Source of the DNA: a virus
Strand: one strand, 5' to 3'
IMG/VR virus record: IMGVR_UViG_3300020202_000017
DNA: 49,607 nucleotides
A program made the translations under genes and the position numbers. Under the pieces are notes generated by a model. That model searched no databases, had not been told where the DNA came from, and saw nothing but the letters and a program-made list of their open reading frames with translations. Of this stretch, positions 1 to 49,607 are shown one piece after another. Position 1 is the first letter of the stretch. Each line of letters opens with the position of its first letter.

Positions 1-127
1 ACGATGGACGACCAGAAGTTCATCGCCCACGGTGGGCTAGGAATAGACGCGTCGGTAATGGTGTCGCCGACGGGGGCTACCGCGACGCTTTCTACCTGGG
101 AGCCGAGGCTGGCCGCGAACGGGTCGA
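1..127. repeat. Terminal direct repeat, copy 1 (identical to 49481-49607); circular-assembly overlap
   Basis: Read base by base: acgatggacgaccagaag...gcgaacgggtcga occurs at both window ends, and the reading frame is continuous across the junction. Confidence 0.9.
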
Positions 128-12241: not shown

Positions 12242-12942
12242 GCATCTCCTCGTCCACCTCGTTCGACCTGACCCGGACTGGGATAATCCGGGTGGCTTAC
12301 CAGCTCATTGGAGTGGTTCCGGCCGGGGAAGACCCGTCGACGGCGCAACTGTCGCTCGGCACCGACCTCTTGAACGTCGAGCTCAAGGCGCTTCAGAACC
12401 GGGGAATCATCCTCACGAAGCTCGACGAGACGACCACGACCCTGGTTCAGGGGCAGGCGGAATACTCGACCGCCTCAGACACGCTCGATATCGACAGCCG
12501 GACGCCATACGTCACCGACACGTCCGGCAACGACTTCCCGGTCAAGTTCATCTCTCGGGCGATGTACATGCGCCTGACCGAGAAGGAGACCGAGTCCCAG
12601 CCGTCTCAGATGTACGTCGAGCGGGGGACTACGATCTCCTTCTTCCTCTACCCGACCCCCGACGCCTCCTGGGCGAGCATCACATACCCGCGGGTGAAGT
12701 TACTCACCGACATGGATTCGGCCGACATCAACACCGGCCTCCGGTCCAAGTACCTCAGGGGGATTGTCTTCTGGCTGGCCGCGGACCTGGCATTCCACCA
12801 CGGGCTCCTCGAGAAGCAGCGCTTTCTTAAAGCGGAGTGGGAGCAGGCCATCTCCGAGGCCGTAAATGACGACACGGAGCGGGGGCCAATTCAGATCAAA
12901 CCGGACTACGGGTATCGGTTCGGACGAAGAGGGAGACGGTAA
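12238..12942 (+). CDS. Head-to-tail adaptor, P22 gp4-like (putative)
   Basis: ATGA overlap with the upstream stop (the track ORF opens earlier, at 12217). The N-terminal helix ..GIIRVAYQLIGVVPAGEDPSTAQLSLGTDLLNVELKALQNRG.. resembles podovirus adaptor proteins. Position is consistent with this call. Confidence 0.4.
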   Translation: MSISSSTSFDLTRTGIIRVAYQLIGVVPAGEDPSTAQLSLGTDLLNVELKALQNRGIILTKLDETTTTLVQGQAEYSTASDTLDIDSRTPYVTDTSGNDFPVKFISRAMYMRLTEKETESQPSQMYVERGTTISFFLYPTPDASWASITYPRVKLLTDMDSADINTGLRSKYLRGIVFWLAADLAFHHGLLEKQRFLKAEWEQAISEAVNDDTERGPIQIKPDYGYRFGRRGRR

Positions 12943-14474
12943 TGGCCTCGCTTCTGACAGAACTGGTTATCTCCGGCTCCCGAAAGAGCGACGGGACGGC
13001 GAACGCATCCGGAAAGGTCTACGCCTACATCCCCGGTACCAGCACGTCGGTCCCCGTGTATTCGAGCTCTGACGCCTCGACGATAGCGACCCAGCCTCTC
13101 ACGCTGGACTCGGGCGGAAGAATCAACCGAACGGACTACCCGTCCGGAATTTGGGTCACTCGCCCGGTTCGGCTGCTGATTCAGGACTCGGCAGGAAGTA
13201 CCGTCTCCGATTCGACCTACTACCCGGCCACGGCGAACAACGTCGCCATGGACAACGATGGGTTCACCGGCACGACGGTGGACGAGGCCCTGGACGCCGC
13301 CTACACGAGCACCGGGGGACAGGACTTCAAGTACCTGGAGAGCGCGGGGGCTACCGCCAGGACTATCAAGGCGAAGTTCTCCGAGCTGGGTATATCGGTA
13401 AAAGACTTCGGCGCCGTCGGGGACGGGGTGACGGTCGACACGTCGGCAATTCAGCAGGCGATGAACCGGGCCAAGGTTCTCTCGGTCCCGGTGATGTTCC
13501 CTGGCGGTACCTACAAGATTGACCAGGCCCTTGCGCTCACGAGCGCGACGGGGGTTTCGCTCATTGGCGCCGGCTCGGCCTCCGCCATCATCTCGAACAC
13601 CCACGCCACCGGGAACGCCTTCACACTGACGTCTTGCACTGGGTTCAGGGTCGAGGGTCTGGCTATCACCAACGCCACTGCGGGCACGAACACGGGAATC
13701 GGTCTCTCCCTCGTTAGCTGCTCGAACGTTATCGTCACGGCGTCGAAAATCACCGAACACGGTACCGGCATCAGCATCACCGGGACGGCGCCCGGGAACA
13801 TTATCGTGACCGGCGGGACCATCGTCGAGGCGGCTGCCATCGGAGCGAACGCCCGGGGCATAATGGTCAACCCGACGACCAGTCCGGCCACTGGCACCAA
13901 GTTCGCCGCCATCGGCTGCAACTTGTCTGGGGCGGGCAACTCGTCCAGCGCCAGCATCGAGTTCGCTGGCTCTGCGAACCATTGCACCGTCACGGGTTGC
14001 ACATTCTACGGCGCCGCTAACGTCCGGTTCGATTCCGCGCTCACCGGCACTAACTTCTACATCTTCTCCAATAGCTACCCGTCTGGACTGGCGCAGGTAA
14101 TCGAAGCCGCCACCGAGCCGTCCGCTCTCCTTACTGACGTCACGAACAACGCCACAACCGAGACGATGACCGGCACGGGGACGGCGACCACGCCTGACCG
14201 CAGCCGCTTCAACCTGTTTCGCATCAACGTCACTGGGGCGGGCGCGACGATCACAATCCCCGCGCCAACCCCAATCCCCAGCGCGGACTCCGACGCGATT
14301 ATCCGGTTCCGCCTCTACAACAACAACGCTGGAGCGACAACCTACACCTTCAACGCCGTCTACCACCTCGCCTCAGCTATCAGCACGACGGCCGGGAACC
14401 AGACGGAAATTGAACTCCATTGGGACTGGTCGCGGTCAATCTGGGTCGAGGCCTACCGAGCGGTGACGACGTGA
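12942..14474 (+). CDS. Tailspike/depolymerase with a pectate-lyase-3-type beta-helix
   Basis: Hallmark ISVKDFGAVGDGVTVDTSAIQQAMNRA..VMFPGGTYKI motif followed by beta-helix rungs. 510 aa. Confidence 0.8.
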   Translation: MASLLTELVISGSRKSDGTANASGKVYAYIPGTSTSVPVYSSSDASTIATQPLTLDSGGRINRTDYPSGIWVTRPVRLLIQDSAGSTVSDSTYYPATANNVAMDNDGFTGTTVDEALDAAYTSTGGQDFKYLESAGATARTIKAKFSELGISVKDFGAVGDGVTVDTSAIQQAMNRAKVLSVPVMFPGGTYKIDQALALTSATGVSLIGAGSASAIISNTHATGNAFTLTSCTGFRVEGLAITNATAGTNTGIGLSLVSCSNVIVTASKITEHGTGISITGTAPGNIIVTGGTIVEAAAIGANARGIMVNPTTSPATGTKFAAIGCNLSGAGNSSSASIEFAGSANHCTVTGCTFYGAANVRFDSALTGTNFYIFSNSYPSGLAQVIEAATEPSALLTDVTNNATTETMTGTGTATTPDRSRFNLFRINVTGAGATITIPAPTPIPSADSDAIIRFRLYNNNAGATTYTFNAVYHLASAISTTAGNQTEIELHWDWSRSIWVEAYRAVTT

Positions 14475-22639: not shown

Positions 22640-22897
22640 GTGGAGATGTCGAATGAGGAATATCCCAGCCGAGGAACGGGCGACTGGCGCGACCTCGACA
22701 AGGCTGAGGTGCACACCCTCAGAGTCGTCTTCCGAGCGCTTGAAGCTGCTGGAACGGCTGGCCTCAGGAGCGTTGTCGCTCTTGAGCAAGCTACAGGAGA
22801 TCAACGCCGCGCACTTACCAGAGAAATCCGAGAACAACTCAAATACGTCTGTGACGTCGGACTTAGCTGCGTCGACGCCCTGAAAGGATGCGAATGA
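22640..22897 (+). CDS. Hypothetical protein, 85 aa
   Basis: GTG immediately follows the upstream TGA, and its stop overlaps the holin ATG (ATGA). Confidence 0.45.
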   Translation: MEMSNEEYPSRGTGDWRDLDKAEVHTLRVVFRALEAAGTAGLRSVVALEQATGDQRRALTREIREQLKYVCDVGLSCVDALKGCE

Positions 22898-23145
22898 AAA
22901 TCAAGAATGCGAAGAACAAGGTACTGGCCGCCGTCGCCTCCACCGTTGCCGGCGCCGGGGCGGTTGTTGGCCTGGCCGCGACGGGCGTAGGCCTTCCAGC
23001 CGCCATCGTGACCGCGGCGAAGTGGATTGTCACCTGGGGGACGGTCTTCGGGGTCGTGGCCGCCAAAGCCCTCCCCGGGAACGGGAAGAACGCCCCCAAG
23101 AAAGACGCCCGCGGCCAAATCGCCGACGCCGAAGACCCCCGATGA
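22894..23145 (+). CDS. Holin candidate, 2 TM, 83 aa
   Basis: ATGA coupling with AAAGGA 5 nt upstream. Two hydrophobic helices (VLAAVASTVAGAGAVVGLAA; WIVTWGTVFGVVAA) and a charged C-terminus. Lies just upstream of the endolysin. Confidence 0.5.
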   Translation: MKIKNAKNKVLAAVASTVAGAGAVVGLAATGVGLPAAIVTAAKWIVTWGTVFGVVAAKALPGNGKNAPKKDARGQIADAEDPR

Positions 23146-23222: not shown

Positions 23223-23737
23223 GCGTTAACCTCCCCCCATCGCCGTTCCGCGACCCTCCCCCTCTGCCAATCACCGACGGGGAGGCGTTCCGGCTATCCC
23301 TCTTGCGCCCAGATGCAAGGGCCAGGGCCGAGGGAGTCATGCGGCGGATGATGCAGCGGGGGCACGACTGCCCATACGTCGGGTCAACCAGGCGTACCCA
23401 GCGAGAGCAGGAAGACGCCCAGAGACGAGGGACCAGCTCCGCGTCCCAGACCCTGTCCTGGCACCTCCTGGACCGAGCAGTCGACTTCAGGAAGCGCCTC
23501 CCAGGGAACAAGCCAGACCCGACCACCAAGGACGAGAGGTTCTTCCTGGACCTCTGGGAGTGCGCAGAGGAAGAGGGGATGCGCTGCCTCGGCTTCGAAA
23601 AGGACCACGCCGGTAAGCCCGTGAAGCTCTATATCAACAACGGCAAGCTGTGGGACCCTGGCCACTGCGAATGGCGCCAGCCCTACGTTTCTCTCGTCCA
23701 GGCCACCGCGGCGGAGGCGCCCTACCTCATCGCCTAG
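23219..23737 (+). CDS. Endolysin, peptidase M15 (VanY / L-Ala-D-Glu peptidase-like)
   Basis: ATGA-coupled internal start of track ORF 23027..23737. Zn-ligand-type motifs SWHLLDRAVD (SxHxxxxAxD) and DPGHCEW. 172 aa with no wall-binding domain. Confidence 0.65.
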   Translation: MSVNLPPSPFRDPPPLPITDGEAFRLSLLRPDARARAEGVMRRMMQRGHDCPYVGSTRRTQREQEDAQRRGTSSASQTLSWHLLDRAVDFRKRLPGNKPDPTTKDERFFLDLWECAEEEGMRCLGFEKDHAGKPVKLYINNGKLWDPGHCEWRQPYVSLVQATAAEAPYLIA

Positions 23738-23940
23738 CGGACCCGCTTTCGCTTTAGCGGGTTCTTAGACTGCCTCCAAAGCAGCCACCCCATAACCCCC
23801 GTGGCCAACGTGAAAACGGGGATGCACACGAGAACCACCCACGTCTCGTCTGCCCAGAGGGCAGACCACGCGCTCACGCTGGCGGCACTGATAGATACCA
23901 CCCACGCCGCCGCTTCTTTCTTGGTGATAGGTTGATTCAA
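23734..23940 (-). CDS. 2-TM small membrane protein, 68 aa (last gene of the leftward operon)
   Basis: TTG start overlapping the HTTM stop (TTGA). Helices AAAWVVSISAASVSAWSALWA and WVVLVCIPVFTLATGVMGWLLW, with basic tail KNPLKRKRVR. Its stop shares the CTAG with the endolysin stop. Confidence 0.4.
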   Translation of the reverse strand: MNQPITKKEAAAWVVSISAASVSAWSALWADETWVVLVCIPVFTLATGVMGWLLWRQSKNPLKRKRVR

Positions 23941-25175
23941 AGGGTCACCCGACAAACGAGCCGTCCGTCTGAGTAGAAGGCTACAGCGTACTTCCCATTC
24001 CCCCCTAGCTCCCGGTCGAACTTCACAAGCGTCTCTACCCTCCAGCGGTCGATATCCTCCACCCAGCACCTATCCCCCATCCCAACCCTTTCTCTCCTCC
24101 ACATGAGCGCCACGCCGTAGTAGATGCGCTCCGAGGCATGCCAGGCGAGCCTGCCACCTTTCTCGTCGTTCAAGGGGAGCCGGGTTTCCTTGCCACCCTC
24201 GAGCCGATAGAGAACCGCGTAACTCTCGTTCGTCCGAAGGTCCGTCCGGTTGAAGACGTTCACCGGGGATATGCCAAGGTGCTCAGAGAGGACGGGCAGG
24301 GGGTTGACGCTCCCGGCGACAGGGTAGTCCGCTACCGCCAGAAGACACCCAGCGACGAACACGAACACCCCTATCCCTGCTCGATTCCCCTCGGGGGGCT
24401 GGAGCTTGAGCGGGGGACCCCAGAAAACCAGGGCCCACAGGAGGAGCTCGAAGTACGGGAGCCACGCCAGGTGCAACAGGAGAGCGCTGGAGACGAAGAA
24501 GGCGAGCCCATAGCCACAGACCGCCAGTCGGCCGAATCGGCTTCCCCAGAGCGCAAGGGGAAGCATTAGGACCTCCCACGCAAGCATCGCCAGGGTGGCG
24601 ACCAGGGACCCCACGGAAGCAGCTCCCGGGAGCCTCGCTACGACCCACCGAAAGGCGTCGGCGTGGGCGCTGAAGTAGGGGTTGGTGAACACCAGAACCT
24701 GAGCCTCTCCCGAGCGCCAGAGCCGGTCCTGCAGGTGAAACTGCGCGGCCGAGAGAGAGGCCACGGCGTAGGCCGTAAGCGCCATGAGGCGGAGCAGATT
24801 CGCCCTGCTCTCCGTCGGAGAGCCCCATACGCGGTAGATAGCCGTGACCCACCGCCAGCGTAGTCGGGCGTCCAGGGACAGCTCCGTCCCGGCTGGCAAG
24901 AAGGCCATGACCAGGCAGAGCATCTGCACGACCATCGTAGACAGGGACCAGGACAAAAGAACTTGGTCCGCGTGCCACTGGAACAGAAATAGGGAGAGAG
25001 CTGCGAGCGGCGCCAGAAACCCCACTGCGAGCATGAGCGCCGCTGACAGCTCGAAGCCTATAGCAAGCCACTGTGCCGGCGACGTATCCAGGTGCGCCAG
25101 GGCCCACAGGTTCGTCCCGTAGCGGTGGAGCAGGACAGCCCCAAAGGCTATCCGGATGAGGTTGATGCGGAACAC
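23937..25175 (-). CDS. HTTM-domain (vitamin K gamma-carboxylase/SdpB-like) polytopic membrane protein with a ~110-aa soluble C-terminal domain
   Basis: 412 aa, GTG start, about 8-9 hydrophobic helices. The N-terminus NLIRIAFGAVLL..., then ..FLFQWHADQVLLSW..MAFLPAGTELSLDARL, align by eye with the HTTM core (FRxxFG ... NHxYL ... SxDxLL). Confidence 0.5.
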   Translation of the reverse strand: MFRINLIRIAFGAVLLHRYGTNLWALAHLDTSPAQWLAIGFELSAALMLAVGFLAPLAALSLFLFQWHADQVLLSWSLSTMVVQMLCLVMAFLPAGTELSLDARLRWRWVTAIYRVWGSPTESRANLLRLMALTAYAVASLSAAQFHLQDRLWRSGEAQVLVFTNPYFSAHADAFRWVVARLPGAASVGSLVATLAMLAWEVLMLPLALWGSRFGRLAVCGYGLAFFVSSALLLHLAWLPYFELLLWALVFWGPPLKLQPPEGNRAGIGVFVFVAGCLLAVADYPVAGSVNPLPVLSEHLGISPVNVFNRTDLRTNESYAVLYRLEGGKETRLPLNDEKGGRLAWHASERIYYGVALMWRRERVGMGDRCWVEDIDRWRVETLVKFDRELGGNGKYAVAFYSDGRLVCRVTL

Positions 25176-25333
25176 GGGGGGCCGCCGAGTATCGCCTTCT
25201 CTTCCCGCAGCAACAACTCCAGCTCGACGCGCTCTCTCTGCTCCCCTGCGATCACCCTCGCCTGTAGCTCTTCCCTGGCTCTCTTGGAGAGCTTCCCGGT
25301 AACGAGGGCGTAGGCCCCTTCGGGGATGGTCAT
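25148..25333 (-). CDS. Hypothetical 61-aa charged helical protein
   Basis: ATG overlaps the VRR-NUC stop (ATGA). High third-position GC. Overlaps the HTTM start by 28 nt. Confidence 0.4.
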   Translation of the reverse strand: MTIPEGAYALVTGKLSKRAREELQARVIAGEQRERVELELLLREEKAILGGPPCSASTSSG

Positions 25334-25608
25334 ACCTTCAGCCCGCACGCCCTCAAGGCTTCCTCCTCCGTCTGGACCACGAAGTAGGACCATGGGAAGA
25401 GCTTCTGTAGCGCCTGCTCGGACTCAGTGAGCTTGCGGCAGTGAGGGGGGCCTGGTTTTTTGATCTCGAGAAACACAACCTCTCCTCCCAGGGTCTCTGT
25501 GACGAGGTCGCACCCAAAGCCGTGGTACCTGGCCACGTCCTTTACTGGGCGCCCAATGCGTTCCAGGGCTCGCTTGATGGGCAGGTGATTGACATCAGTT
25601 CGGTACAC
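25330..25608 (-). CDS. VRR-NUC-type PD-(D/E)xK nuclease, 92 aa
   Basis: GTG 25608 with GAAGGAGG 10 nt upstream (the track ORF extends to 25671). Motif GFGCDLVTETLGGEVVFLEIKKPG..KLTESEQ fits G-x-PD...E-x-K...Q of VRR-NUC. Confidence 0.55.
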   Translation of the reverse strand: MYRTDVNHLPIKRALERIGRPVKDVARYHGFGCDLVTETLGGEVVFLEIKKPGPPHCRKLTESEQALQKLFPWSYFVVQTEEEALRACGLKV

Positions 25609-25610
25609 TC

Positions 25611-25877
25611 CTAGTTCGCCTCCTTCTCCAGGCGCTCTTTCGTGCAGCCAGCACACGACGGGTCCGTACATGGCAAGAGCAGAGAGGCCGCCTCTTCGTT
25701 CGAGAGTCCCGCCCTCCTGAGCCTCCGTACGAATTCCACGGTGGCGTGAGCCGTCCCCTCGCCCAGCCCTGACCTAAACCCCCTCTTTATGGCAACCCGG
25801 TAGATGGGGACCCATGCAACTACCGCGAGAACGGACGTCCCGAAGAAGACGACCACCGCAAACGCCTCTGCGCTCAT
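25611..25877 (-). CDS. N-terminally membrane-anchored protein with a possible HTH, 88 aa (first gene of the leftward operon)
   Basis: TM helix AFAVVVFFGTSVLAVVAWVPIY, then ..VEFVRRLRRAGLSNEEAASLL.. (resolvase/sigma-r4-like HTH look), then a CxxxxCxxC tail. Confidence 0.5.
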   Translation of the reverse strand: MSAEAFAVVVFFGTSVLAVVAWVPIYRVAIKRGFRSGLGEGTAHATVEFVRRLRRAGLSNEEAASLLLPCTDPSCAGCTKERLEKEAN

Positions 25878-25895: not shown

Positions 25896-26333
25896 GTGGA
25901 CCGTGACGAACTCCTCCGCCTAGCCGACCAAGCAGCCGCCCTAGCCCTGGAGAACGAGAAAACAGCGGCCATGCTGCGCCGCCAGGAAGCCCGATTCCGA
26001 GAGATGGCGGAGGAGGTCACGCGCGAAAGAGTATTGCACAACCGTTTACAACCGTCTACAGTAAACGGCAACATGCACTCTGCCCAGCGCTTGGCCATCT
26101 CCGCGGGCGTATCCGGGGATGACGCCTTTCTACAGACCATCCGCTCCGCCAAGCCAAAGGGGTACACCCAGAACGCCCTGGCCACGGCCATAGGCGTTAG
26201 CGACGGCCTTCTAAGCCTCTACCGCCATGGTAAGCGAAAAATCCCCCTGAAACGCGCCAAGCGCATCGAGAAACTTACGGGCTGGCCCGCAGACGCCGAG
26301 CACTGGCCCGGCGGCATCGTCGATATCGAGTAG
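25896..26333 (+). CDS. XRE/Cro-C1-type HTH regulator, 145 aa (alternative start ATG 26073 gives 86 aa)
   Basis: C-terminal HTH YTQNALATAIGVSDGLLSLYRHGKRKIPLKRAKRIEKLTG. It is divergent from the leftward operon. The inverted repeat at 26042-26068 lies just upstream of the alternative start. Confidence 0.65.
   Translation: MDRDELLRLADQAAALALENEKTAAMLRRQEARFREMAEEVTRERVLHNRLQPSTVNGNMHSAQRLAISAGVSGDDAFLQTIRSAKPKGYTQNALATAIGVSDGLLSLYRHGKRKIPLKRAKRIEKLTGWPADAEHWPGGIVDIE
26042..26068. promoter_or_regulatory. Operator-like inverted repeat CCGTTTAC-N11-GTAAACGG
   Basis: Perfect 8-nt arms at 26042-26049 and 26061-26068. The same half-site recurs at 26381-26404. Confidence 0.45.
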
Positions 26334-29775: not shown

Positions 29776-30074
29776 CCAAGCCAGGCGTCCCCTCTGTGGG
29801 GGAGGCGGTGGGGGCGATGGCCGATGCCCTTCGGAAGCTGGCGGCACGTAAGTGCGTCTGGTGCAACGGCAATCGACCTTGGCCATCCGACGCTCCGCCG
29901 GGAGGCTGCGCCCACGACATCGCCCGCGCCGCTCTCCGCTCCTTCGAGGAGGCCCGAAGGGTGCCTCTACGGGAGAACCAGGCGTTTGCGGATTCGCTGT
30001 TCAACAGCGGAGTCGAGGTGTCCAGGCTTCTGCTCGACGCCGTCGAGCGCGCCCTGTTTGGAGATGCCAAATGA
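29772..30074 (+). CDS. Hypothetical protein, 100 aa
   Basis: ATGA-coupled internal start of track ORF 29661..30074. CVWC..C..H. Confidence 0.5.
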   Translation: MTKPGVPSVGEAVGAMADALRKLAARKCVWCNGNRPWPSDAPPGGCAHDIARAALRSFEEARRVPLRENQAFADSLFNSGVEVSRLLLDAVERALFGDAK

Positions 30075-30718
30075 GTGACCCGGTTAAGGTCCCGCTGGCG
30101 AACGGGAAGGGGTTCGCGCTGGTGTCAGCCGGGCGGGCGGCCGAGGTGCTTAAGCACCGATGGCACCTGCTAACGACCAGCCAGAAATATCGGTACAGCC
30201 AGTACGCCAGGAGAACCGTCAGGCGAGGCGGAAAAGCCAAGACGGTGCTGTTGCATCGCTTCGTGGCTGAGCTGATGGGGATGGACCTGTCGGCCCAGGT
30301 AGACCATCGGAACGGCGACGGCCTCGACTGCACGGATGGCAATCTGCGCCCAGCCACATGCGCGGACAACGCCCACAACATCCGCCAGCGACGGCAGTGG
30401 GCGTCGAGATTCCGTGGCGTGCGCTATTACGGCGGATACGGAAGGAGAAAGCGCTGGCAAGCGTGCATAACGGTCAATAGGCGCCGAATCTGCCTCGGCT
30501 ACTACGCCACAGAGGAAGAGGCGGCCCGCGCGTACGACGCAGCCGCGATAAAGCACCACGGAGAATTCGCCGGCACGAACTTCGGCTCCCCCTCTCCTAG
30601 CGAGACGCCTGTTGTAGCCGCAGAGACTTCTATGTCTGCCGACGCGGAAAAACTCACGCGCGAAATACAGGGCACCGTCGATTCTGACGCAACGACCCTC
30701 AGCGGGGGTGAGAAGTGA
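30071..30718 (+). CDS. HNH endonuclease fused to an AP2 DNA-binding domain (homing-endonuclease type)
   Basis: ATGA-coupled. HNH: VDHRNGDGLDCTDGNLRPATCADNAHN. AP2: SRFRGVRYYG..WQACITVNRRRICLGYYATEEEAARAYDAAAIKHHGEFAGTNF. Confidence 0.8.
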   Translation: MSDPVKVPLANGKGFALVSAGRAAEVLKHRWHLLTTSQKYRYSQYARRTVRRGGKAKTVLLHRFVAELMGMDLSAQVDHRNGDGLDCTDGNLRPATCADNAHNIRQRRQWASRFRGVRYYGGYGRRKRWQACITVNRRRICLGYYATEEEAARAYDAAAIKHHGEFAGTNFGSPSPSETPVVAAETSMSADAEKLTREIQGTVDSDATTLSGGEK

Positions 30719-33993: not shown

Positions 33994-35061
33994 ATGGGGT
34001 TGGCGGACGAGATAGCGGCGAAGGTACTGCTCGGGCTGGGCGCAACGCAGACGCCCGCTGGCAAAAAGCAGCCATCAATTTCGGTGGGCCAGCTGTACAT
34101 GAAGTATCGCGGCTCGAAGCCTCGTGGGTTGGCCTGGCGAATTGAGCGACAGAACCTCCGGTACTTCATCCTCCGCTACTGGCGGCGCCCCTGTGACTCG
34201 CTGACCCAGGTGGACTGGGACCGGCACAGAGAGCTCCGGCGGGGTGAGAAGACGCGCCAGGGAAGGCCCCCGGCTGAGTCCACGATGAACGTGGACTTGA
34301 CCCGTACGAAGCAAATGTTTTGGTACGGGGTGAACGCGGGGCTGATCGAAAAGCACCCCTTCCCGAAAGCCAAATTCGTGAAGGCCAAGAAGCGGAGGGG
34401 GACGGCGCCCAATGCTGCGCAGGTGAACGAAATCCTCGCCCACGTCGGATGCCTCCGGTACCACTACCAACAGATAACCGTCCGCGCTCTGGTGTGCGTG
34501 ATGGCGGACACTGGGGCTCGCATATCCGAGGCCATGGGCCTGCGCTGGGACAGGATCACGCTACGCTGGACTACGACCGTCCTGGGCAAGGGGGACAAAA
34601 CCAGACCCATCGCCTTCACGTCTCGAGCGCGCGAGGCGCTGTCCGCCATTCCCCGTCACCCCTCTAGTCCGTACGTGTTCACCAACTACACAAGTGGGCA
34701 GCGATGGAAAACGGGAACTGTCCGCGGGTGGTTCTACCGGGTCGTGGACGAGTGCGGCTTGAACGACATCTGCATCGACGGGGACGCGCGGATTGTCCCT
34801 CACCACCTTCGCCACTCCTTCGCCACTGAAGCGGACCGGCGAGGAGCAACCCTCACTCAGATTCAACACGCCCTTGGGCATGCCTCCGCAAAAACCACCG
34901 AGCTCTATCTCCACAAGGACAAAGAAAATAACGCCGTGGAGATTTCCAGGATTATGGAGGGCGGACGCAGGCTTATGAGACGCGGCCCCAGGAAGTCAAG
35001 TCACGAACCAGAAAAAAATCTGGACACGTCTCAAGGCAGTAGGGCAAAGTACATTTCGTGA
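33994..35061 (+). CDS. int: Tyrosine integrase
   Basis: 355 aa. Catalytic signature ..ADTGARISEA.. (Arg), HHLRHSFAT (HxxR) and LGHASAKTTELYLH (Tyr). Confidence 0.9.
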   Translation: MGLADEIAAKVLLGLGATQTPAGKKQPSISVGQLYMKYRGSKPRGLAWRIERQNLRYFILRYWRRPCDSLTQVDWDRHRELRRGEKTRQGRPPAESTMNVDLTRTKQMFWYGVNAGLIEKHPFPKAKFVKAKKRRGTAPNAAQVNEILAHVGCLRYHYQQITVRALVCVMADTGARISEAMGLRWDRITLRWTTTVLGKGDKTRPIAFTSRAREALSAIPRHPSSPYVFTNYTSGQRWKTGTVRGWFYRVVDECGLNDICIDGDARIVPHHLRHSFATEADRRGATLTQIQHALGHASAKTTELYLHKDKENNAVEISRIMEGGRRLMRRGPRKSSHEPEKNLDTSQGSRAKYIS

Positions 35062-47129: not shown

Positions 47130-49607
47130 GCACCCCTTCGCTCGCTACCTGGCGGTTTCCGTCAGACCCGTCCGTTGCCCCCGGACGCCCAGCCAAGCTC
47201 GGCGAGAGAGCAGAAGCCCTCGACACGGGGGTTATGTACCTCAAGAACGGCCCGGCTGACACGGACTGGATTCCGTGGAGCTCGGGCTCCATGGGCCCAT
47301 CTCTGGCCAATGCCGAGGTCTACGTTTCTCCGGACGGCGACGATGCCAACGACGGGCTTTCCTGGCAGACGGCGAAGGAGCACGTCTACAACGCCCTCCA
47401 GACGCTAATCAGCCTGGATGGTGGAACTCTCTACGTAGCGGATAACTGCGAAGTCGGTGGACCCGTAGCAGGTCAGGGTATCTGGCTGCGTTGGGACCGC
47501 CCTTCTACGCCGTTCCTCCCGCCTGGCTTTCTCCCCGCGGTGAACATGCGCATCGTCGGGTGTGGGAAGACCTCCATCGGGTTCCAGCCTGGCATCGCCG
47601 CGCGAGTGAACGGGGGAGGGGACACCTTTCGCCCGCACGTTTGGATTGTCGGGGTAATGAACTCGACCATATCCATCGAGAACATCATCCCCCGCGGCTT
47701 CCTCACCTACGGGGGAAGAATCGGCGTCGACTGGGACCGCGAGACCTCCGGGGCAATCAAGCAAATAACCGTCACCAACGGCACCCGGACCGGAACGACC
47801 ACCGTATTCACGCTGGACGTAAACGGCATCACGCCGATTCAGGTCCTAAGCGCCGCCAGGACCTCGAACGTCACCACGCTAACCATCACAAATCCGGGGT
47901 TGCCTTGGCCGCCATGGCGCCAGGGGGTTCCTATTCGCGTGACCTCTGGAGACGCCGACTTCGCCTCAGGCGATTACACGATAACCGAGACCTCGAATCA
48001 CGAGGGAGGGGACGCGGACACCTGGACCATCTCCTACGCCGAGGTTGGGGCGGATGCGCCCAGCCAGACCGTCGCAAACACCTTCGTCCGCACCCACGGG
48101 ATTAAGGCCGGCGAGCTCTTCAACCTGACGAGCAACACGGTCAACTTCCTGGGGACGCAGTACTACTGCGACTCGGCCACGGTCACCACGGTCACCTGCA
48201 CGGACGTCTTTGGGAACGGGAATCAGAACACCAACAACATCGGGACGATTGCCCACCAGGAGCGATTCTGCGCTGGGACGGCCCGGGTCCGGGTCACGGG
48301 ATGCAGCGTTCGTCTCCATGATGCCGACCCGCTTACCGGGCACTCCTGGGACATTGGGCACATCAAGGCCGGCGGCCTGGCCCCGGTATTTAAGCGGTGC
48401 TGGTCCCAGGGGTTTGTCGGAGACGGCTCTGGTCCTCGCGATGAGCGGAGGATGTCCCAGGTCTACGCCTACTCGGGCACGGCCGGGAACCTCGGCCCGG
48501 CAGCGACCGGCCTCGCGATGTACGACTGCGCCGGGTACGGCGGAGAAATTCTCGTCGAAGTGCCGTCTACCGGCGTTGGCGAGGTCGACTGTCGGCGCAT
48601 CCTCCATGAGACGTTCTTCGAGGAAGAAAACCCTCGGCCGGTGCTTGAGGTTCGCGGGAGCCCGTTTACGCGGGTGTACGCCGAAGACCTGATAAACGCC
48701 GACACGCCGGACTCGGAATTCCCGACCGTCGTCCTAACCAACGTCCCGTGGTTTGCGGCCGAAATTCATCGGTCCGGCTTCGTTGACGGGCCGTGTATTG
48801 GCGGGGACCTGGCTCAGATTCCAGCCGCTTACAGCTTCGGTTCCAACATCGCCACCCCTTGGGAGACGAATCATGTGTGCGGGTGGGCGGACGGACGGAT
48901 CACCGGGAAGCACCCAGGTCACCTCAGGGCCATGGGCCCGCTTGGGGCGAGGTTCAAGAACGTAATCGCCGCTCCTTCTGCGTGGAGCGCGCGCACCAAC
49001 ACCGTCACTCCTAACACCTCAGACCTCGCTGCCCCAGACGGCAGCATGACGGCCACTAAGGTGGTCTCTGCCAATGCCTATCTGTCGTTAAAGCCAAACG
49101 GAGCCGACGGGAACACGTGGCAAGTCGGCGGGAAGCTCGTTGTGTCTGGCTGGTTCAACGCCCTAGACGCAGAAACGTACACCTCAGAGGATATGTTTTT
49201 CATCGCCGGGGGGAATATCACCTTCGACGATGGGCTCCGTGCCAAGTGCCCGTTCAACGGGCCTGGGTGGCAGTTCATCCAATCGACGTTCGTGGTCGCG
49301 TCGGTTACCAGTTCTACCCCGACCTACGAAATCAACACGCTGTTTGCCGGCGCCAAGACCATCTACATATGGGGCGCTACCGCCTACTACATTCCAGCAT
49401 CGGTCAGTGACAACGACGCCTACGAGGTTGCCGGGGTAACCAAACACCTCCCCAGATACCTCATGCCTGGCATGGCCGGGACGATGGACGACCAGAAGTT
49501 CATCGCCCACGGTGGGCTAGGAATAGACGCGTCGGTAATGGTGTCGCCGACGGGGGCTACCGCGACGCTTTCTACCTGGGAGCCGAGGCTGGCCGCGAAC
49601 GGGTCGA
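47126..49607 (+). CDS. Tail fibre/tailspike-like protein, N-terminal part (the ORF has no stop in the window and continues at 1..891; 1081 codons in total)
   Basis: GTG overlaps the upstream stop (GTGA). I translated the frame by hand to the window end without meeting a stop. N-terminal beta-helix-cap-like ..VYVSPDGDDANDGLSWQTAKEHVYNAL..GGTLYV.. Confidence 0.8.
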   Translation, partial: MSTPSLATWRFPSDPSVAPGRPAKLGERAEALDTGVMYLKNGPADTDWIPWSSGSMGPSLANAEVYVSPDGDDANDGLSWQTAKEHVYNALQTLISLDGGTLYVADNCEVGGPVAGQGIWLRWDRPSTPFLPPGFLPAVNMRIVGCGKTSIGFQPGIAARVNGGGDTFRPHVWIVGVMNSTISIENIIPRGFLTYGGRIGVDWDRETSGAIKQITVTNGTRTGTTTVFTLDVNGITPIQVLSAARTSNVTTLTITNPGLPWPPWRQGVPIRVTSGDADFASGDYTITETSNHEGGDADTWTISYAEVGADAPSQTVANTFVRTHGIKAGELFNLTSNTVNFLGTQYYCDSATVTTVTCTDVFGNGNQNTNNIGTIAHQERFCAGTARVRVTGCSVRLHDADPLTGHSWDIGHIKAGGLAPVFKRCWSQGFVGDGSGPRDERRMSQVYAYSGTAGNLGPAATGLAMYDCAGYGGEILVEVPSTGVGEVDCRRILHETFFEEENPRPVLEVRGSPFTRVYAEDLINADTPDSEFPTVVLTNVPWFAAEIHRSGFVDGPCIGGDLAQIPAAYSFGSNIATPWETNHVCGWADGRITGKHPGHLRAMGPLGARFKNVIAAPSAWSARTNTVTPNTSDLAAPDGSMTATKVVSANAYLSLKPNGADGNTWQVGGKLVVSGWFNALDAETYTSEDMFFIAGGNITFDDGLRAKCPFNGPGWQFIQSTFVVASVTSSTPTYEINTLFAGAKTIYIWGATAYYIPASVSDNDAYEVAGVTKHLPRYLMPGMAGTMDDQKFIAHGGLGIDASVMVSPTGATATLSTWEPRLAANGS
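49481..49607. repeat. Terminal direct repeat, copy 2 (identical to 1-127)
   Basis: Exact 127-nt identity with the window start. Confidence 0.9.

What the first reader, a model, noticed from the sequence alone, without database searches (positions are those of the whole stretch)
23937..25175. HTTM (vitamin K gamma-carboxylase-like) membrane enzyme encoded by a phage, with an unassigned ~110-aa soluble C-terminal domain
The N-terminal ~300 aa contain about 8-9 hydrophobic helices. By eye they align with the HTTM core: NLIRIAFGAVLL matches FRxxFGxxM, FLFQWHADQVLLSW lies in the NHxYL region, and LPAGTELSLDARL matches W/xSxDxLL. The C-terminal part (about LSEHLGISPVNVF to the end) is hydrophilic and beta-rich and I cannot assign it to any family. 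HTTM proteins are normally chromosomal, so a copy in a podovirus genome is unusual. An alternative reading is an acyltransferase-3-type O-antigen acetylase (a lysogenic-conversion gene), because the N-terminus also loosely resembles the R...H helix of that family. The R-to-H spacing does not match, however.
Basis: partly seen in the sequence, partly recalled or inferred. Interest (0 to 1): 0.7.

Follow-up and report, generated by a model that had tools for sequence, protein, structure and literature searches.

The report
Phage-borne GGCX-fold membrane enzyme, His variant
A temperate phage carries the smallest known member of an undescribed family of membrane enzymes that fold like the human vitamin K-dependent carboxylase but have a different catalytic residue; because bacterial relatives lie in surface-sugar gene clusters, it probably alters the host cell surface.

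Summary
The ORF is real: 23937-25175, minus strand, 412 aa, GTG start. It has nine TM helices and a roughly 95-aa soluble C-terminal domain. Pfam, NCBIfam and PHROGs give no significant hit, including HTTM and Acyl_transf_3. A pLDDT 96 AlphaFold model matches only vitamin K-dependent carboxylase (GGCX) in the PDB: 13 chains, E 2e-5 to 6e-4, TM about 0.5; the next hit has E 0.35. GGCX's catalytic Lys218 is replaced by a family-invariant His147, and the Glu-binding N159/H160 are absent. The protein is therefore HTTM-superfamily but not a carboxylase orthologue. It belongs to an unannotated family of 454 clusters at 50% identity. Thirteen of 46 aligned members carry a 141-220-aa insert in the TM8-TM9 loop; Pfam calls a DCC1-like domain in 9, and in the two mapped it lies there. 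Seven of 12 bacterial neighbourhoods hold WbqC/GT2/methyltransferase/hexapeptide-acetyltransferase/GH130-like/DegT genes. Two temperate Rhizobium siphophages hold relatives on the opposite strand between tailspike and lysis genes. My best reading is an envelope-glycoconjugate-modifying conversion enzyme, probably quinol-dependent. The chemistry is untested.

The parts
23937..25175 (-). CDS of the 412-aa GGCX-fold membrane protein (GTG start at 25175, TGA stop at 23937-23939)
   Evidence: The same gene is called on 8 independent ~49.6-kb contigs.
24327..25175 (-). Membrane core, residues 1-283: nine TM helices (2-28, 33-51, 55-72, 78-92, 122-149, 183-209, 213-233, 239-251, 264-282)
   Evidence: AF2 model with pLDDT 96. 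Matches only GGCX in the PDB. hhalign signal to GGCX 55-246.
24735..24737 (-). Codon of His147, invariant in 46/46 relatives; aligns with the GGCX catalytic base Lys218
   Evidence: No Lys in residues 1-256. The role of K218 is taken from PMC12589487 and PMC12647623.
24717..24719 (-). Codon of Trp153, invariant; aligns with GGCX Trp223, which stacks on K218 and lines the naphthoquinone pocket
   Evidence: The His-to-Trp spacing of 6 equals the Lys189-to-Trp195 spacing in a bona fide bacterial HTTM-DCC1 protein.
24630..24728 (-). Residues 150-182, the TM5-TM6 extracytoplasmic 'cap' loop; its length is fixed at 33-34 aa across the family; it starts with D150, aligned with GGCX D220
   Evidence: Cap function in GGCX.
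24387..24422 (-). Residues 252-263, the short TM8-TM9 loop. 13 of 46 aligned relatives carry a 141-220-aa insertion here; the phage protein has none. The DCC1-like domain was mapped to this position in two relatives.
   Evidence: Insertion sizes. DCC1-like detected by Pfam in 9 of the 46. Its position following the first eight TM helices is shown for L006 (370-479 of 683 aa) and P0025 (505-615, after the core at 244-500).
24225..24326 (-). Residues 284-317, the linker with the near-invariant motif G301...V307-F308-N309..D312-L313
   Evidence: The motif is kept in the Rhizobium phage homologs. A greedy hhalign run places D312-L313 on GGCX D400-M401, at low confidence.
23940..24224 (-). Residues 318-412, a small alpha/beta C-terminal domain that I infer to be periplasmic. 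It carries conserved R342, D/E349 and W359-R360-R361, and a subfamily Cys370/Cys408 pair.
   Evidence: No sequence match to GGCX or to any other family. The Rhizobium phage homologs have an unrelated ~300-aa domain in this place.
25148..25877 (-). Three small upstream ORFs, tightly packed or overlapping with the gene: 88 aa (25611-25877; I judge it hydrophobic by eye), 92 aa (25330-25608), and 61 aa (25148-25333, ATGA-coupled to the previous ORF and overlapping the 412-aa start by 28 nt). Probably one leftward operon.
   Evidence: Sequence read. Independent gene calls. No family hits.
25896..26333 (+). Divergently oriented HTH_3/Cro-like regulator that heads the rightward early genes
   Evidence: HTH_3 E 2e-6; P22_Cro weak.
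12942..14474 (+). Tailspike with a pectate-lyase fold, which implies a polysaccharide receptor
   Evidence: PHROG tailspike families. PF12708 on the identical gene.
33994..35061 (+). Tyrosine integrase, indicating a temperate lifestyle
   Evidence: phrog_1 at E 3e-43. PF00589.

Best explanation
The gene encodes the minimal member of an undescribed bacterial family of nine-TM enzymes that share the fold and the N-terminal motifs of vitamin K-dependent carboxylase (HTTM superfamily). A small C-terminal domain lies on the periplasmic side by my inferred topology. The active site sits at the outer leaflet, where GGCX holds the quinol head group. In this family it is built from invariant His147 and Trp153, with Asp150 and perhaps Glu/Gln201, in place of GGCX Lys218, Trp223 and Asp263. 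The Glu-binding residues of GGCX are missing, so the substrate is not a protein glutamate. I infer that the enzyme uses a membrane isoprenoid cofactor, most likely a quinol. I infer that it chemically modifies a cell-envelope glycoconjugate or its lipid-linked precursor at the periplasmic face. In this temperate, tailspike-bearing phage it would act as a conversion or superinfection-exclusion gene that alters the polysaccharide receptor. Shown: the fold, the family, the residue pattern, the gene neighbourhoods and the phage positions. Inferred: the topology, the cofactor, the substrate and the benefit to the phage.
For: Fold: the pLDDT 96, pTM 0.94 model matches only 13 GGCX chains (E 2.4e-5 to 6e-4, prob 1.0, TMq 0.47-0.50). 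The next hit has E 0.35. The earlier low-confidence model gave the same result.
Sequence: hhalign of the family against a GGCX profile gives Prob 65%, E 6e-5 and score 47.7 over the first five TMs. A local rerun scored 40, against at most 25.6 in 14 reversed or shuffled controls.
Residues: R8, H147, W153 and G156 are invariant. R18, S100, D102, S230 and E243 are conserved in at least 42 of 46 sequences; D70 is D or E in 38 and D150 is D or E in 41. H147, D150, W153 and G156 align with K218, D220, W223 and G226.
Link to true HTTM proteins: 13 of 46 relatives carry a 141-220-aa insert in the TM8-TM9 loop. Pfam calls a DCC1-like domain in 9 of the 46, and it lies at that position in the two relatives mapped. 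Bona fide HTTM-DCC1 proteins have the same domain order. In those proteins a separate 'TM helix + DUF5819' partner stands where TM9 and the C-terminal domain stand here, and Lys189...Trp195 sit by the modelled menaquinol.
Glycan link: 7 of 12 bacterial neighbourhoods contain WbqC, GT2, methyltransferases, a hexapeptide acetyltransferase, a GH130-like protein, DegT or PhyH. In L020 the family gene overlaps the upstream gene's end by 10 nt. One further neighbourhood has a NodU/CmcH-type carbamoyltransferase and one an STT3-like protein.
Phage link: this phage has an integrase, and its tailspike has a pectate-lyase fold. Two temperate Rhizobium siphophages carry relatives at E ~1e-85 with all key residues kept. 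In both, the gene is on the opposite strand between a tail-fibre or pectin-lyase gene and the lysis cassette. Their C-terminal domains differ, as expected if that domain sets specificity.
Against: There is no biochemical evidence of any kind. Sequence similarity to GGCX is weak (13-15% identity), is confined to residues 3-172, and fails the Pfam HTTM model. TM about 0.5 and rmsd about 9 A indicate the same fold but not a close relationship.
Quinol dependence is inferred only from aligned residues and the DCC1 fusion. The phage protein itself has no DCC1 domain.
The six closest homologs (50-55% identity) are not in the conserved sugar cluster. The cluster association is therefore transferred from relatives at 25-36% identity.
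The gene lies in a leftward operon next to the Cro-like gene, and no promoter or terminator was detected. Expression in the lysogen is unknown.
The neighbouring ORF could not be confirmed as an endolysin. The claim that this phage uses the same slot as the Rhizobium phages is therefore only approximate.
Confidence: 0.45

Rival explanations
1. The protein is a polyprenyl-phosphate-sugar-dependent transferase, a functional analogue of ArnT or Gtr(type) built on a GGCX fold. The isoprenoid tunnel would bind undecaprenyl-phosphate-linked sugar instead of a quinone, and the enzyme would transfer the modified amino sugar onto an envelope acceptor in the periplasm.
For: The conserved cluster resembles an Arn/Gtr-type pathway (resemblance from my own knowledge). 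It has a DegT aminotransferase, a hexapeptide N-acyltransferase and a ~313-326-aa GT2 of the size of ArnC/GtrB. The only polytopic membrane protein listed in these clusters is the family member. The conserved acidic residues D70, D150, E243 and D312, and the W359-R360-R361 motif, lie on the outer side by my inferred topology.
Against: No GT-C structure appears among the 50 listed Foldseek hits. A thiol-disulfide oxidoreductase domain fused into the enzyme has no obvious role in glycosyl transfer. The residues that align with GGCX are those of the quinol-deprotonation site. The phage carries neither a GtrA nor a GtrB partner.
Confidence: 0.2
2. The protein is a true vitamin K (menaquinone)-dependent carboxylase or epoxidase of the HTTM family. 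It would carboxylate a protein or peptide substrate.
For: GGCX is the only structural match. The R-x3-G and S-x-D motifs and the Trp are conserved. Bacterial HTTM carboxylases such as MloH exist.
Against: The Pfam HTTM model does not match the protein or any of 46 relatives. The catalytic Lys218 position holds an invariant His, and there is no Lys in the membrane domain. N159 and H160 are not conserved. True orthologues in bacteria and eukaryotes are reported to conserve these residues.
Confidence: 0.07
3. The protein is a maturation factor for an exported protein, analogous to SdpB for SdpC or to LMF1 for lipases (both are recalled from my own knowledge as HTTM-type and are not tested here). 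It would help fold, or redox-process, a host or phage periplasmic protein.
For: It belongs to the HTTM superfamily by fold. Some family members are fused to a DCC1-like thiol-disulfide oxidoreductase. Three small co-operonic ORFs of unknown function could be clients.
Against: The bacterial neighbourhoods are dominated by sugar-modifying enzymes, not by secreted-protein or toxin genes. The strictly conserved polar residues argue for catalysis on a small group.
Confidence: 0.1
4. The protein is a non-catalytic membrane protein used for superinfection exclusion or for control of lysis timing.
For: It lies at the border of the late region and next to small ORFs, at least one of which (22888-23145) I judge hydrophobic by eye. 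There is one very weak PHROG holin hit at E 0.11.
Against: Charged and polar residues within TM helices are invariant across relatives at 25-55% identity, and the cap loop length is fixed. This is the signature of an enzyme. Most family members are chromosomal and lie in biosynthetic clusters.
Confidence: 0.08
5. The protein is an acyltransferase-3 (OafA/Oac-type) O-antigen acetyltransferase.
For: The functional setting fits: a polytopic membrane protein in a temperate phage with a tailspike.
Against: There is no Acyl_transf_3 hit at E up to 10 for the 7 close homologs, and none at E up to 0.01 for the 46 relatives. No acyltransferase-3 fold is among the 50 listed structural matches. The fold is GGCX-like.
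Confidence: 0.02

Closest known systems
[quoted passage not shown]
   Same: Nine TM helices followed by an extracytoplasmic domain. GGCX is the only PDB fold match. R-x3-G at the start of TM1, S-x-D after TM4, a Trp just after the end of TM5, and a cap loop after TM5 are all shared.
   Different: 13-15% identity and no Pfam match. About half the size (412 versus 758 aa). Lys218 is replaced by an invariant His. The Glu-binding N159/H160 are absent. The C-terminal domain is far smaller and has no detectable sequence similarity to the GGCX clamps. It is bacterial and phage-borne, and is linked to sugar clusters.
Bacterial HTTM-DCC1-like membrane proteins with their DUF5819 partner (bioRxiv 10.64898/2026.08.19.745780), and the carboxylase MloH
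   Same: Same domain order: membrane core, then a DCC1-like domain, then a TM helix plus an outer domain. The spacing between the base position and the Trp is also 6 residues.
   Different: Those proteins match the Pfam HTTM model and keep the Lys. In them the TM helix and outer domain are a separate polypeptide. Here everything is one chain, the DCC1 domain is an optional insert in the TM8-TM9 loop, and the base position holds His.
Phage lysogenic-conversion enzymes that modify O-antigen (Oac acetyltransferases; GtrABC glucosylation systems of P22 and Shigella phages). The comparison is from my own knowledge.
   Same: A polytopic inner-membrane protein in a temperate phage that recognises polysaccharide through a tailspike. 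In the Rhizobium phages the gene is on the opposite strand next to tail-fibre genes. The outer domain varies between members.
   Different: The fold is unrelated (neither acyltransferase-3 nor GT-C). No partner genes are present. No phenotype has been shown.
DoxX/DoxD quinone-associated membrane proteins. I recall from memory, without verifying, that they share a Pfam clan with HTTM.
   Same: Weak sub-threshold hits to the first TM helices: DoxX at E 0.057 to 5, and DoxD at E 0.0014 in the Rhizobium phage homolog.
   Different: Those are four-TM proteins. All hits are below the gathering scores.

Membership tests
HTTM / vitamin K-dependent carboxylase (Pfam PF05090) | Match to the family HMM at or above the gathering score | tested here: not met
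   No hit at E up to 10 for the protein or its 6 close homologs. No hit at E up to 0.01 in 46 relatives. A family profile searched against PDB sequences also finds no GGCX.
HTTM / vitamin K-dependent carboxylase (Pfam PF05090) | GGCX-type fold: nine TM helices followed by an extracytoplasmic domain | tested here: met
   Model with pLDDT 96 and nine helices. Foldseek finds 13 GGCX chains at E 2e-5 to 6e-4 and TMq 0.47-0.50, and nothing else below E 0.35. GGCX has nine TMs.
HTTM / vitamin K-dependent carboxylase (Pfam PF05090) | Conserved N-terminal motifs: F-R-x-x-F-G at TM1 and W-S-x-D after TM4 | tested here: met
   R8 (46/46) and G12 align with R68 and G72. S100 and D102 (45/46 each) align with S181 and D183. 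The alignment score is above 14 controls.
HTTM / vitamin K-dependent carboxylase (Pfam PF05090) | Catalytic general base Lys218 | tested here: not met
   Invariant His147 aligns with K218 (46/46). There is no Lys in residues 1-256.
HTTM / vitamin K-dependent carboxylase (Pfam PF05090) | Trp223, which stacks on the base and lines the quinone pocket | tested here: met
   Invariant W153 aligns with W223.
HTTM / vitamin K-dependent carboxylase (Pfam PF05090) | Glu-substrate site N159/H160 (and Y395) | tested here: not met
   N158-N159-H160 align with S77-L78-S79; the family consensus there is T/S/N-L-G. Y395 could not be placed reliably.
HTTM / vitamin K-dependent carboxylase (Pfam PF05090) | Dependence on vitamin K hydroquinone and O2; epoxidase or carboxylase activity | not testable with these tools
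   Needs biochemistry or ligand co-folding.
Acyltransferase-3 (OafA/Oac) | Match to Pfam Acyl_transf_3, and a ten-TM AT3 fold with the R...H motif in TM1 | tested here: not met
   No hit. No AT3 structure among the 50 listed Foldseek hits.
GT-C glycosyltransferases (ArnT, Gtr type) | GT-C fold | tested here: not met
   No GT-C structure among the 50 listed PDB matches. No Pfam GT-C family hit.
Phage moron / lysogenic-conversion gene | Carried by a temperate phage | tested here: met
   Integrase at 33994-35061. Both Rhizobium phages with homologs have annotated att sites, and RHph_N28_2 also has an integrase and an S24 repressor.
Phage moron / lysogenic-conversion gene | Sits at a module boundary, in opposite orientation to the flanking late genes | tested here: met
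   Window: minus strand, convergent with the end of the plus-strand late region. Rhizobium phages: opposite strand, between tail-fibre or pectin-lyase genes and the lysis genes.
Phage moron / lysogenic-conversion gene | Own promoter and terminator; expressed in the lysogen | tested here: inconclusive
   No sigma-70-type promoter or canonical terminator was found. The gene appears co-operonic with three upstream ORFs. Expression cannot be tested here.
Phage moron / lysogenic-conversion gene | Changes host surface or phage susceptibility | not testable with these tools
   Requires expression in the (unknown) host.

The most novel reading that the evidence does not exclude
The protein represents a new class of phage conversion enzyme and a new bacterial tailoring pathway. 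It would be a GGCX-fold 'His-variant' that uses membrane quinol (with DCC1-like domains recycling the cofactor in the long forms) to oxidise, carboxylate or otherwise activate a sugar or sugar-linked group on a surface glycoconjugate at the periplasmic face. Phages would have captured the minimal core and exchange the outer domain to retarget it.
Probability: 0.2. Interest if true: 0.85.

Novelty: new variant of a known kind. Interest (0 to 1): 0.62.

Why it matters
What bacterial relatives of the vitamin K-dependent carboxylase do is mostly unknown. MloH is the only one with a defined reaction in the papers I read. This finding delineates a sizeable unannotated sister family of 454 clusters at 50% identity. 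It has a different catalytic residue, a recurrent amino-sugar and methyltransferase gene cluster, and optional redox-domain inserts. Temperate phages of at least two unrelated morphotypes carry stripped-down copies. If the enzyme modifies surface glycans, it would add a new fold and probably a new chemistry to phage serotype conversion and receptor masking. The 412-aa phage protein would also be the smallest tractable model for studying GGCX-type catalysis. If it does not, it still marks a family that current annotation pipelines miss entirely.

Tried and rejected
1. Direct hmmscan against Pfam, NCBIfam and PHROGs gave nothing significant. The only hits were DoxX at E 5 and a holin PHROG at E 0.11. 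I treated both as noise or a clan-level hint.
2. Family profiles searched against PDB sequences found no meaningful hit.
3. A word-indexed homolog search with the broad profile added almost nothing.
4. Scans of IMG/VR and of GTDB representative genomes with the close-subfamily patterns found no relatives. The broad alignment was too divergent for that tool.
5. Megablast of the region against the phage collection found no match.
6. hhalign of the middle part (residues 160-300) and of the C-terminal domain alone against GGCX was not significant. Equivalence of the C-terminal domain to the GGCX lumenal domain therefore rests on position only. The E201~D263 and D312-L313~D400-M401 pairings come from a greedy low-confidence alignment.
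7. I tried to confirm the neighbouring ORF 23219/23339-23737 as an endolysin, on the basis of an SxHxxxxAxD-like motif seen by eye. Pfam, PHROGs, PDB sequences and tblastn against phages were all negative. I do not rely on it.
8. The promoter and terminator scan was uninformative.
9. Source names for 10 relatives were all 'hypothetical protein' or absent.
10. PHROG scanning of the P0016 contigs confirmed only an endolysin and one family of unknown function. Those contigs are probably phage, but this is not proven.
11. I rejected the acyltransferase-3, GT-C and true-carboxylase readings for the reasons given under the rival explanations.
Full report
OBSERVATION

The ORF is at 23937..25175 on the minus strand. 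It encodes 412 aa and starts with GTG. The start is fixed because family-invariant residues begin at Arg3 and an in-frame stop lies just upstream. The gene is real and under selection. Six metagenomic homologs are 50-55% identical over 97% of its length. A profile of these finds 454 clusters at 50% identity in 1.84 billion representatives, 145 of them below E 1e-30.

The window is a complete phage genome. Its last 127 nt repeat its first 127 nt. The identical gene lies on eight ~49.6-kb contigs, and the two contigs displayed have the same gene order as the window. The genome encodes TerL, portal, major head protein, a head-closure protein, a tailspike with a pectate-lyase fold, a P22 gp10-like protein, RecT, an HNH endonuclease, a Cro-like HTH protein and a tyrosine integrase. 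TerL is closest (36-39%) to HMO-2011-type podoviruses of Alphaproteobacteria. No ORF exceeds the 744-aa portal, so there is no obvious tape-measure gene. 'Temperate podovirus' is therefore reasonable. The gene's GC (0.637) and GC3 (0.789) match those of the core genes.

FAMILY ASSIGNMENT

Pfam, NCBIfam and PHROGs give no significant hit for the protein. None of 46 relatives matches Pfam HTTM or Acyl_transf_3.

Structure gives a clear answer. With a 46-sequence alignment, AlphaFold2 reaches pLDDT 96.1 and pTM 0.94. Foldseek against the PDB returns 13 chains with E 2.4e-5 to 6e-4, probability 1.0 and TMq 0.47-0.50. All 13 are human GGCX. The fourteenth hit has E 0.35. A first model with pLDDT 68 gave the same ranking.

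At sequence level, hhalign of the family against one GGCX sequence gives E 7e-4. I had checked that sequence as 100% identical to PDB 13ib_A. Against a profile of 15 vertebrate GGCX sequences, hhalign gives Prob 65%, E 6e-5 and score 47.7 over family residues 3-172 and GGCX 57-236. In my own rerun the true alignment scored 40. Fourteen reversed or column-shuffled controls scored at most 25.6. The similarity is weak but real, and it is confined to the first five helices. The middle and C-terminal parts show nothing.

RESIDUES

R8 and G12 pair with R68 and G72. S100 and D102 pair with S181 and D183. The third is positional only: S75-W76 pair with S156-W157, but N158-N159-H160, which bind the substrate Glu, face S77-L78-S79.

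The most informative column is the catalytic base. GGCX Lys218 deprotonates vitamin K hydroquinone and stacks on Trp223 (PMC12589487 and PMC12647623). Here His147 aligns with K218, D150 with D220, W153 with W223 and G156 with G226. His147, Trp153 and Gly156 are invariant in 46 of 46 sequences. The phage protein has no lysine anywhere in residues 1-256. True GGCX orthologues in bacteria and eukaryotes are reported to conserve the deprotonation and CO2-stabilising residues. A bona fide bacterial HTTM-DCC1 protein keeps Lys189...Trp195, the same spacing of six as His147...Trp153.

Other highly conserved polar residues are R8, R18, D70, S100, D102, S230 and E243. In the linker and C-terminal domain they are N309, D312, R342, D/E349 and W359-R360-R361. 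This is the pattern of an enzyme, not of a passive membrane protein.

ARCHITECTURE

The model has nine TM helices, as GGCX does. They are followed by a linker and a small alpha/beta domain at residues 318-411. Six arginines lie in the TM4-TM5 loop. Using that, and by analogy with GGCX, I infer that the N-terminus is cytoplasmic and that His147 lies at the outer end of TM5. On the same basis the 33-aa loop after TM5 would be periplasmic, and so would the C-terminal domain. That loop length is essentially invariant in the family.

Thirteen of 46 relatives carry a 141-220-aa insertion in the TM8-TM9 loop, which my topology places in the cytoplasm. Pfam recognises a DCC1-like thiol-disulfide oxidoreductase domain in nine of the 46. 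In the two relatives I mapped, that domain lies between the membrane core and the C-terminal domain. The order core, DCC1, TM helix, outer domain mirrors bona fide bacterial HTTM-DCC1 proteins. In those, a separate 'TM helix + DUF5819' partner stands where a GGCX TM helix and the lumenal clamps stand.

The phage protein is the shortest of the sequences examined and has the shortest loops, so it is the minimal core. It occupies the position of the GGCX lumenal domain but has no detectable sequence similarity to it.

CONTEXT IN BACTERIA

Public sources name the family members I checked only 'hypothetical protein', or 'DUF393 domain-containing protein' when DCC1 is present.

I examined twelve bacterial neighbourhoods. 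Seven contain a recurring gene set. It comprises WbqC, a ~313-326-aa GT2, one to three methyltransferases and a hexapeptide (PglD-like) acetyltransferase. It also includes a ~240-320-aa GH130-like protein directly upstream, and often DegT/EryC1 aminotransferase or PhyH. These are the contexts of P0131, P0008, P0059, P0043, Rhizobium sp. N731 pRspN731b, P0018 and P0012 (the weak GH130 hit is). In L020 the genes run WbqC, GT2, methyltransferase, Hexapep, GH130-like, family member, and the last two overlap. WbqC is a marker of O-antigen and EPS loci (PMC5532660).

Of the remaining five, one has a NodU/CmcH-type carbamoyltransferase immediately downstream and one has an STT3-like protein nearby. 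The three contexts of the closest homologs (P0002, P0003, P0006) lack the cluster.

CONTEXT IN PHAGES

In the window, the gene is the last of a tightly packed leftward operon of 88, 92, 61 and 412 aa. There is ATGA coupling within the operon, and the 61-aa ORF overlaps the 412-aa start by 28 nt. The operon diverges from the Cro-like gene and converges on the end of the late region.

tblastn finds homologs in two cultured temperate Rhizobium siphophages. The family HMM matches them at E ~1e-85 through TM1-TM9 and the G...NVFN..DL linker. Every key residue is kept, but their C-terminal ~300 aa are different. In both phages the gene lies on the opposite strand. It is wedged between a tail-fibre gene (with tailspike- and EPS-depolymerase-like domains) or a pectin-lyase-fold gene and the lysis cassette. 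An acetylesterase or SGNH hydrolase lies nearby.

A third relative, P0016, is carried by 21 contigs of up to ~60 kb. These are gene-dense, and the gene lies ~4 kb upstream of a GH25 endolysin. They are probably phage, but this is not proven. BFVD contains no phage protein with this fold. The only hits there are a giant-virus 'desaturase' (E 8e-4) and, weakly, a giant-virus HTTM protein.

MECHANISM

Shown:
- The fold is that of GGCX.
- A conserved polar constellation has His and Trp where GGCX has its quinol-deprotonating Lys and Trp.
- The Glu site is lost.
- Some family members carry a redox-domain insert.
- Bacterial members are linked to a sugar-tailoring cluster.
- The gene is carried by temperate phages that have polysaccharide-directed tail proteins.

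Inferred:
- The enzyme binds a membrane isoprenoid cofactor, most likely a quinol, with His147 as the base. I give this about 0.4.
- It modifies an envelope glycoconjugate or its lipid-linked precursor on the periplasmic side (about 0.45).
- This benefits the phage by altering its own polysaccharide receptor, through lysogenic conversion or superinfection exclusion (about 0.4).
- The variable outer domain sets target specificity.

The main rival is an ArnT/Gtr-like transferase that uses undecaprenyl-phosphate-sugar in the isoprenoid tunnel (0.2). The cluster composition favours this reading. The DCC1 fusion and the absence of any GT-C similarity argue against it. The other readings are less likely: a protein-maturation factor, a passive exclusion or lysis protein, a true carboxylase, and acyltransferase-3.

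COMPARISON AND NOVELTY

The protein resembles GGCX in fold, in the layout of the outer-leaflet active site, and probably in the use of a lipid cofactor. It is not a member of Pfam HTTM as currently defined, and it cannot be a Lys218-type carboxylase. I classify it as a new variant of a known kind: an unannotated sister family of HTTM with a His base, a conserved glycan-type gene cluster and phage-borne minimal forms. Nothing in the papers I searched connects HTTM-type proteins with phages or with glycan clusters.

LIMITS

- I had no access to model coordinates, so active-site equivalence rests on sequence alignment.
- The GGCX profile was built from vertebrate sequences only.
- The host is unknown and no integrated copy was seen.
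- Expression timing is unknown.
- The neighbouring ORF could not be confirmed as an endolysin.

Noticed in passing
window 1-127 and 49481-49607: The last 127 nt are an exact repeat of the first 127 nt, so the window is a closed, circularly assembled or terminally redundant genome of ~49,480 bp. The identical 412-aa gene lies on eight ~49.6-kb contigs from different samples, and no integrated copy was seen.
   Followed up: partly
window 23734-23940 (-): A possible 68-aa ORF has a TTG start overlapping the TGA stop of the 412-aa gene (TTGA). I judge it to have two TM helices and a basic tail by eye. The public gene caller did not call it, it has no family hit, and it overlaps the hairpin at 23741-23762. 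It may be spurious in this GC-rich DNA.
   Followed up: partly
window 23741-23762: A 7-bp GC-rich hairpin (ACCCGCT / AGCGGGT, 8-nt loop) lies immediately after the stop of the plus-strand gene ending at 23737, between the two convergent genes. It has no T-run, so the terminator scan did not flag it.
   Followed up: no
window 25148-25877 (-): Three small ORFs of 88, 92 and 61 aa lie upstream in the same operon and have no family match. The 92/113-aa ORF contains a 'D...E-x-K' stretch (GCDLVTE...FLEIKK) that reminded me of VRR-NUC/PD-(D/E)xK nucleases. Pfam and PHROGs did not confirm this.
   Followed up: partly
window 23219/23339-23737 (+) and 22888-23145 (+): The last plus-strand late ORFs look like a lysis pair by eye: an 85-aa hydrophobic protein, and a protein with an S-W-H-L-L-D-R-A-V-D motif reminiscent of M15 peptidases. 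Pfam, PHROGs, PDB sequences and tblastn against 50,697 phage records all find nothing. The lysis genes of this phage are unidentified.
   Followed up: yes
L008, L020, L021, L013, L015 and the P0008 contigs: A recurrent and apparently undescribed bacterial gene cluster: WbqC, GT2, methyltransferase(s), hexapeptide acetyltransferase, a GH130-like ~240-320-aa protein, and the GGCX-fold protein, with or without DegT, PhyH and arylsulfotransferases. Its product is unknown.
   Followed up: partly
L017 (Rhizobium sp. N731 plasmid pRspN731b, AMK02_RS22155) and L005 (phage RHph_N28_2, listed host Rhizobium etli N731): A Rhizobium strain designated N731 carries an 852-aa DCC1-containing family member on a plasmid. 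Phage RHph_N28_2, whose listed host is Rhizobium etli N731, carries a DCC1-less 693-aa member. If these are the same strain, host and phage copies could act on the same substrate.
   Followed up: partly
BFVD hits A0A5K0UBG6 (Yasminevirus) and A0A3G5A327 (Harvfovirus): A giant-virus 822-aa 'desaturase' is the only viral structure that resembles the model (E 8e-4, TMq 0.46). It may be a fusion that includes an HTTM-like domain, but I did not check this. A giant-virus 'HTTM domain-containing protein' matches only weakly, at E 2.3.
   Followed up: no
window 33994-35061 (+) and 29852-30718 (+): The integrase lies in the middle of the rightward early region rather than beside the tailspike or the conversion-gene candidate. 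A 288-aa HNH endonuclease lies ~900 nt downstream of RecT.
   Followed up: no
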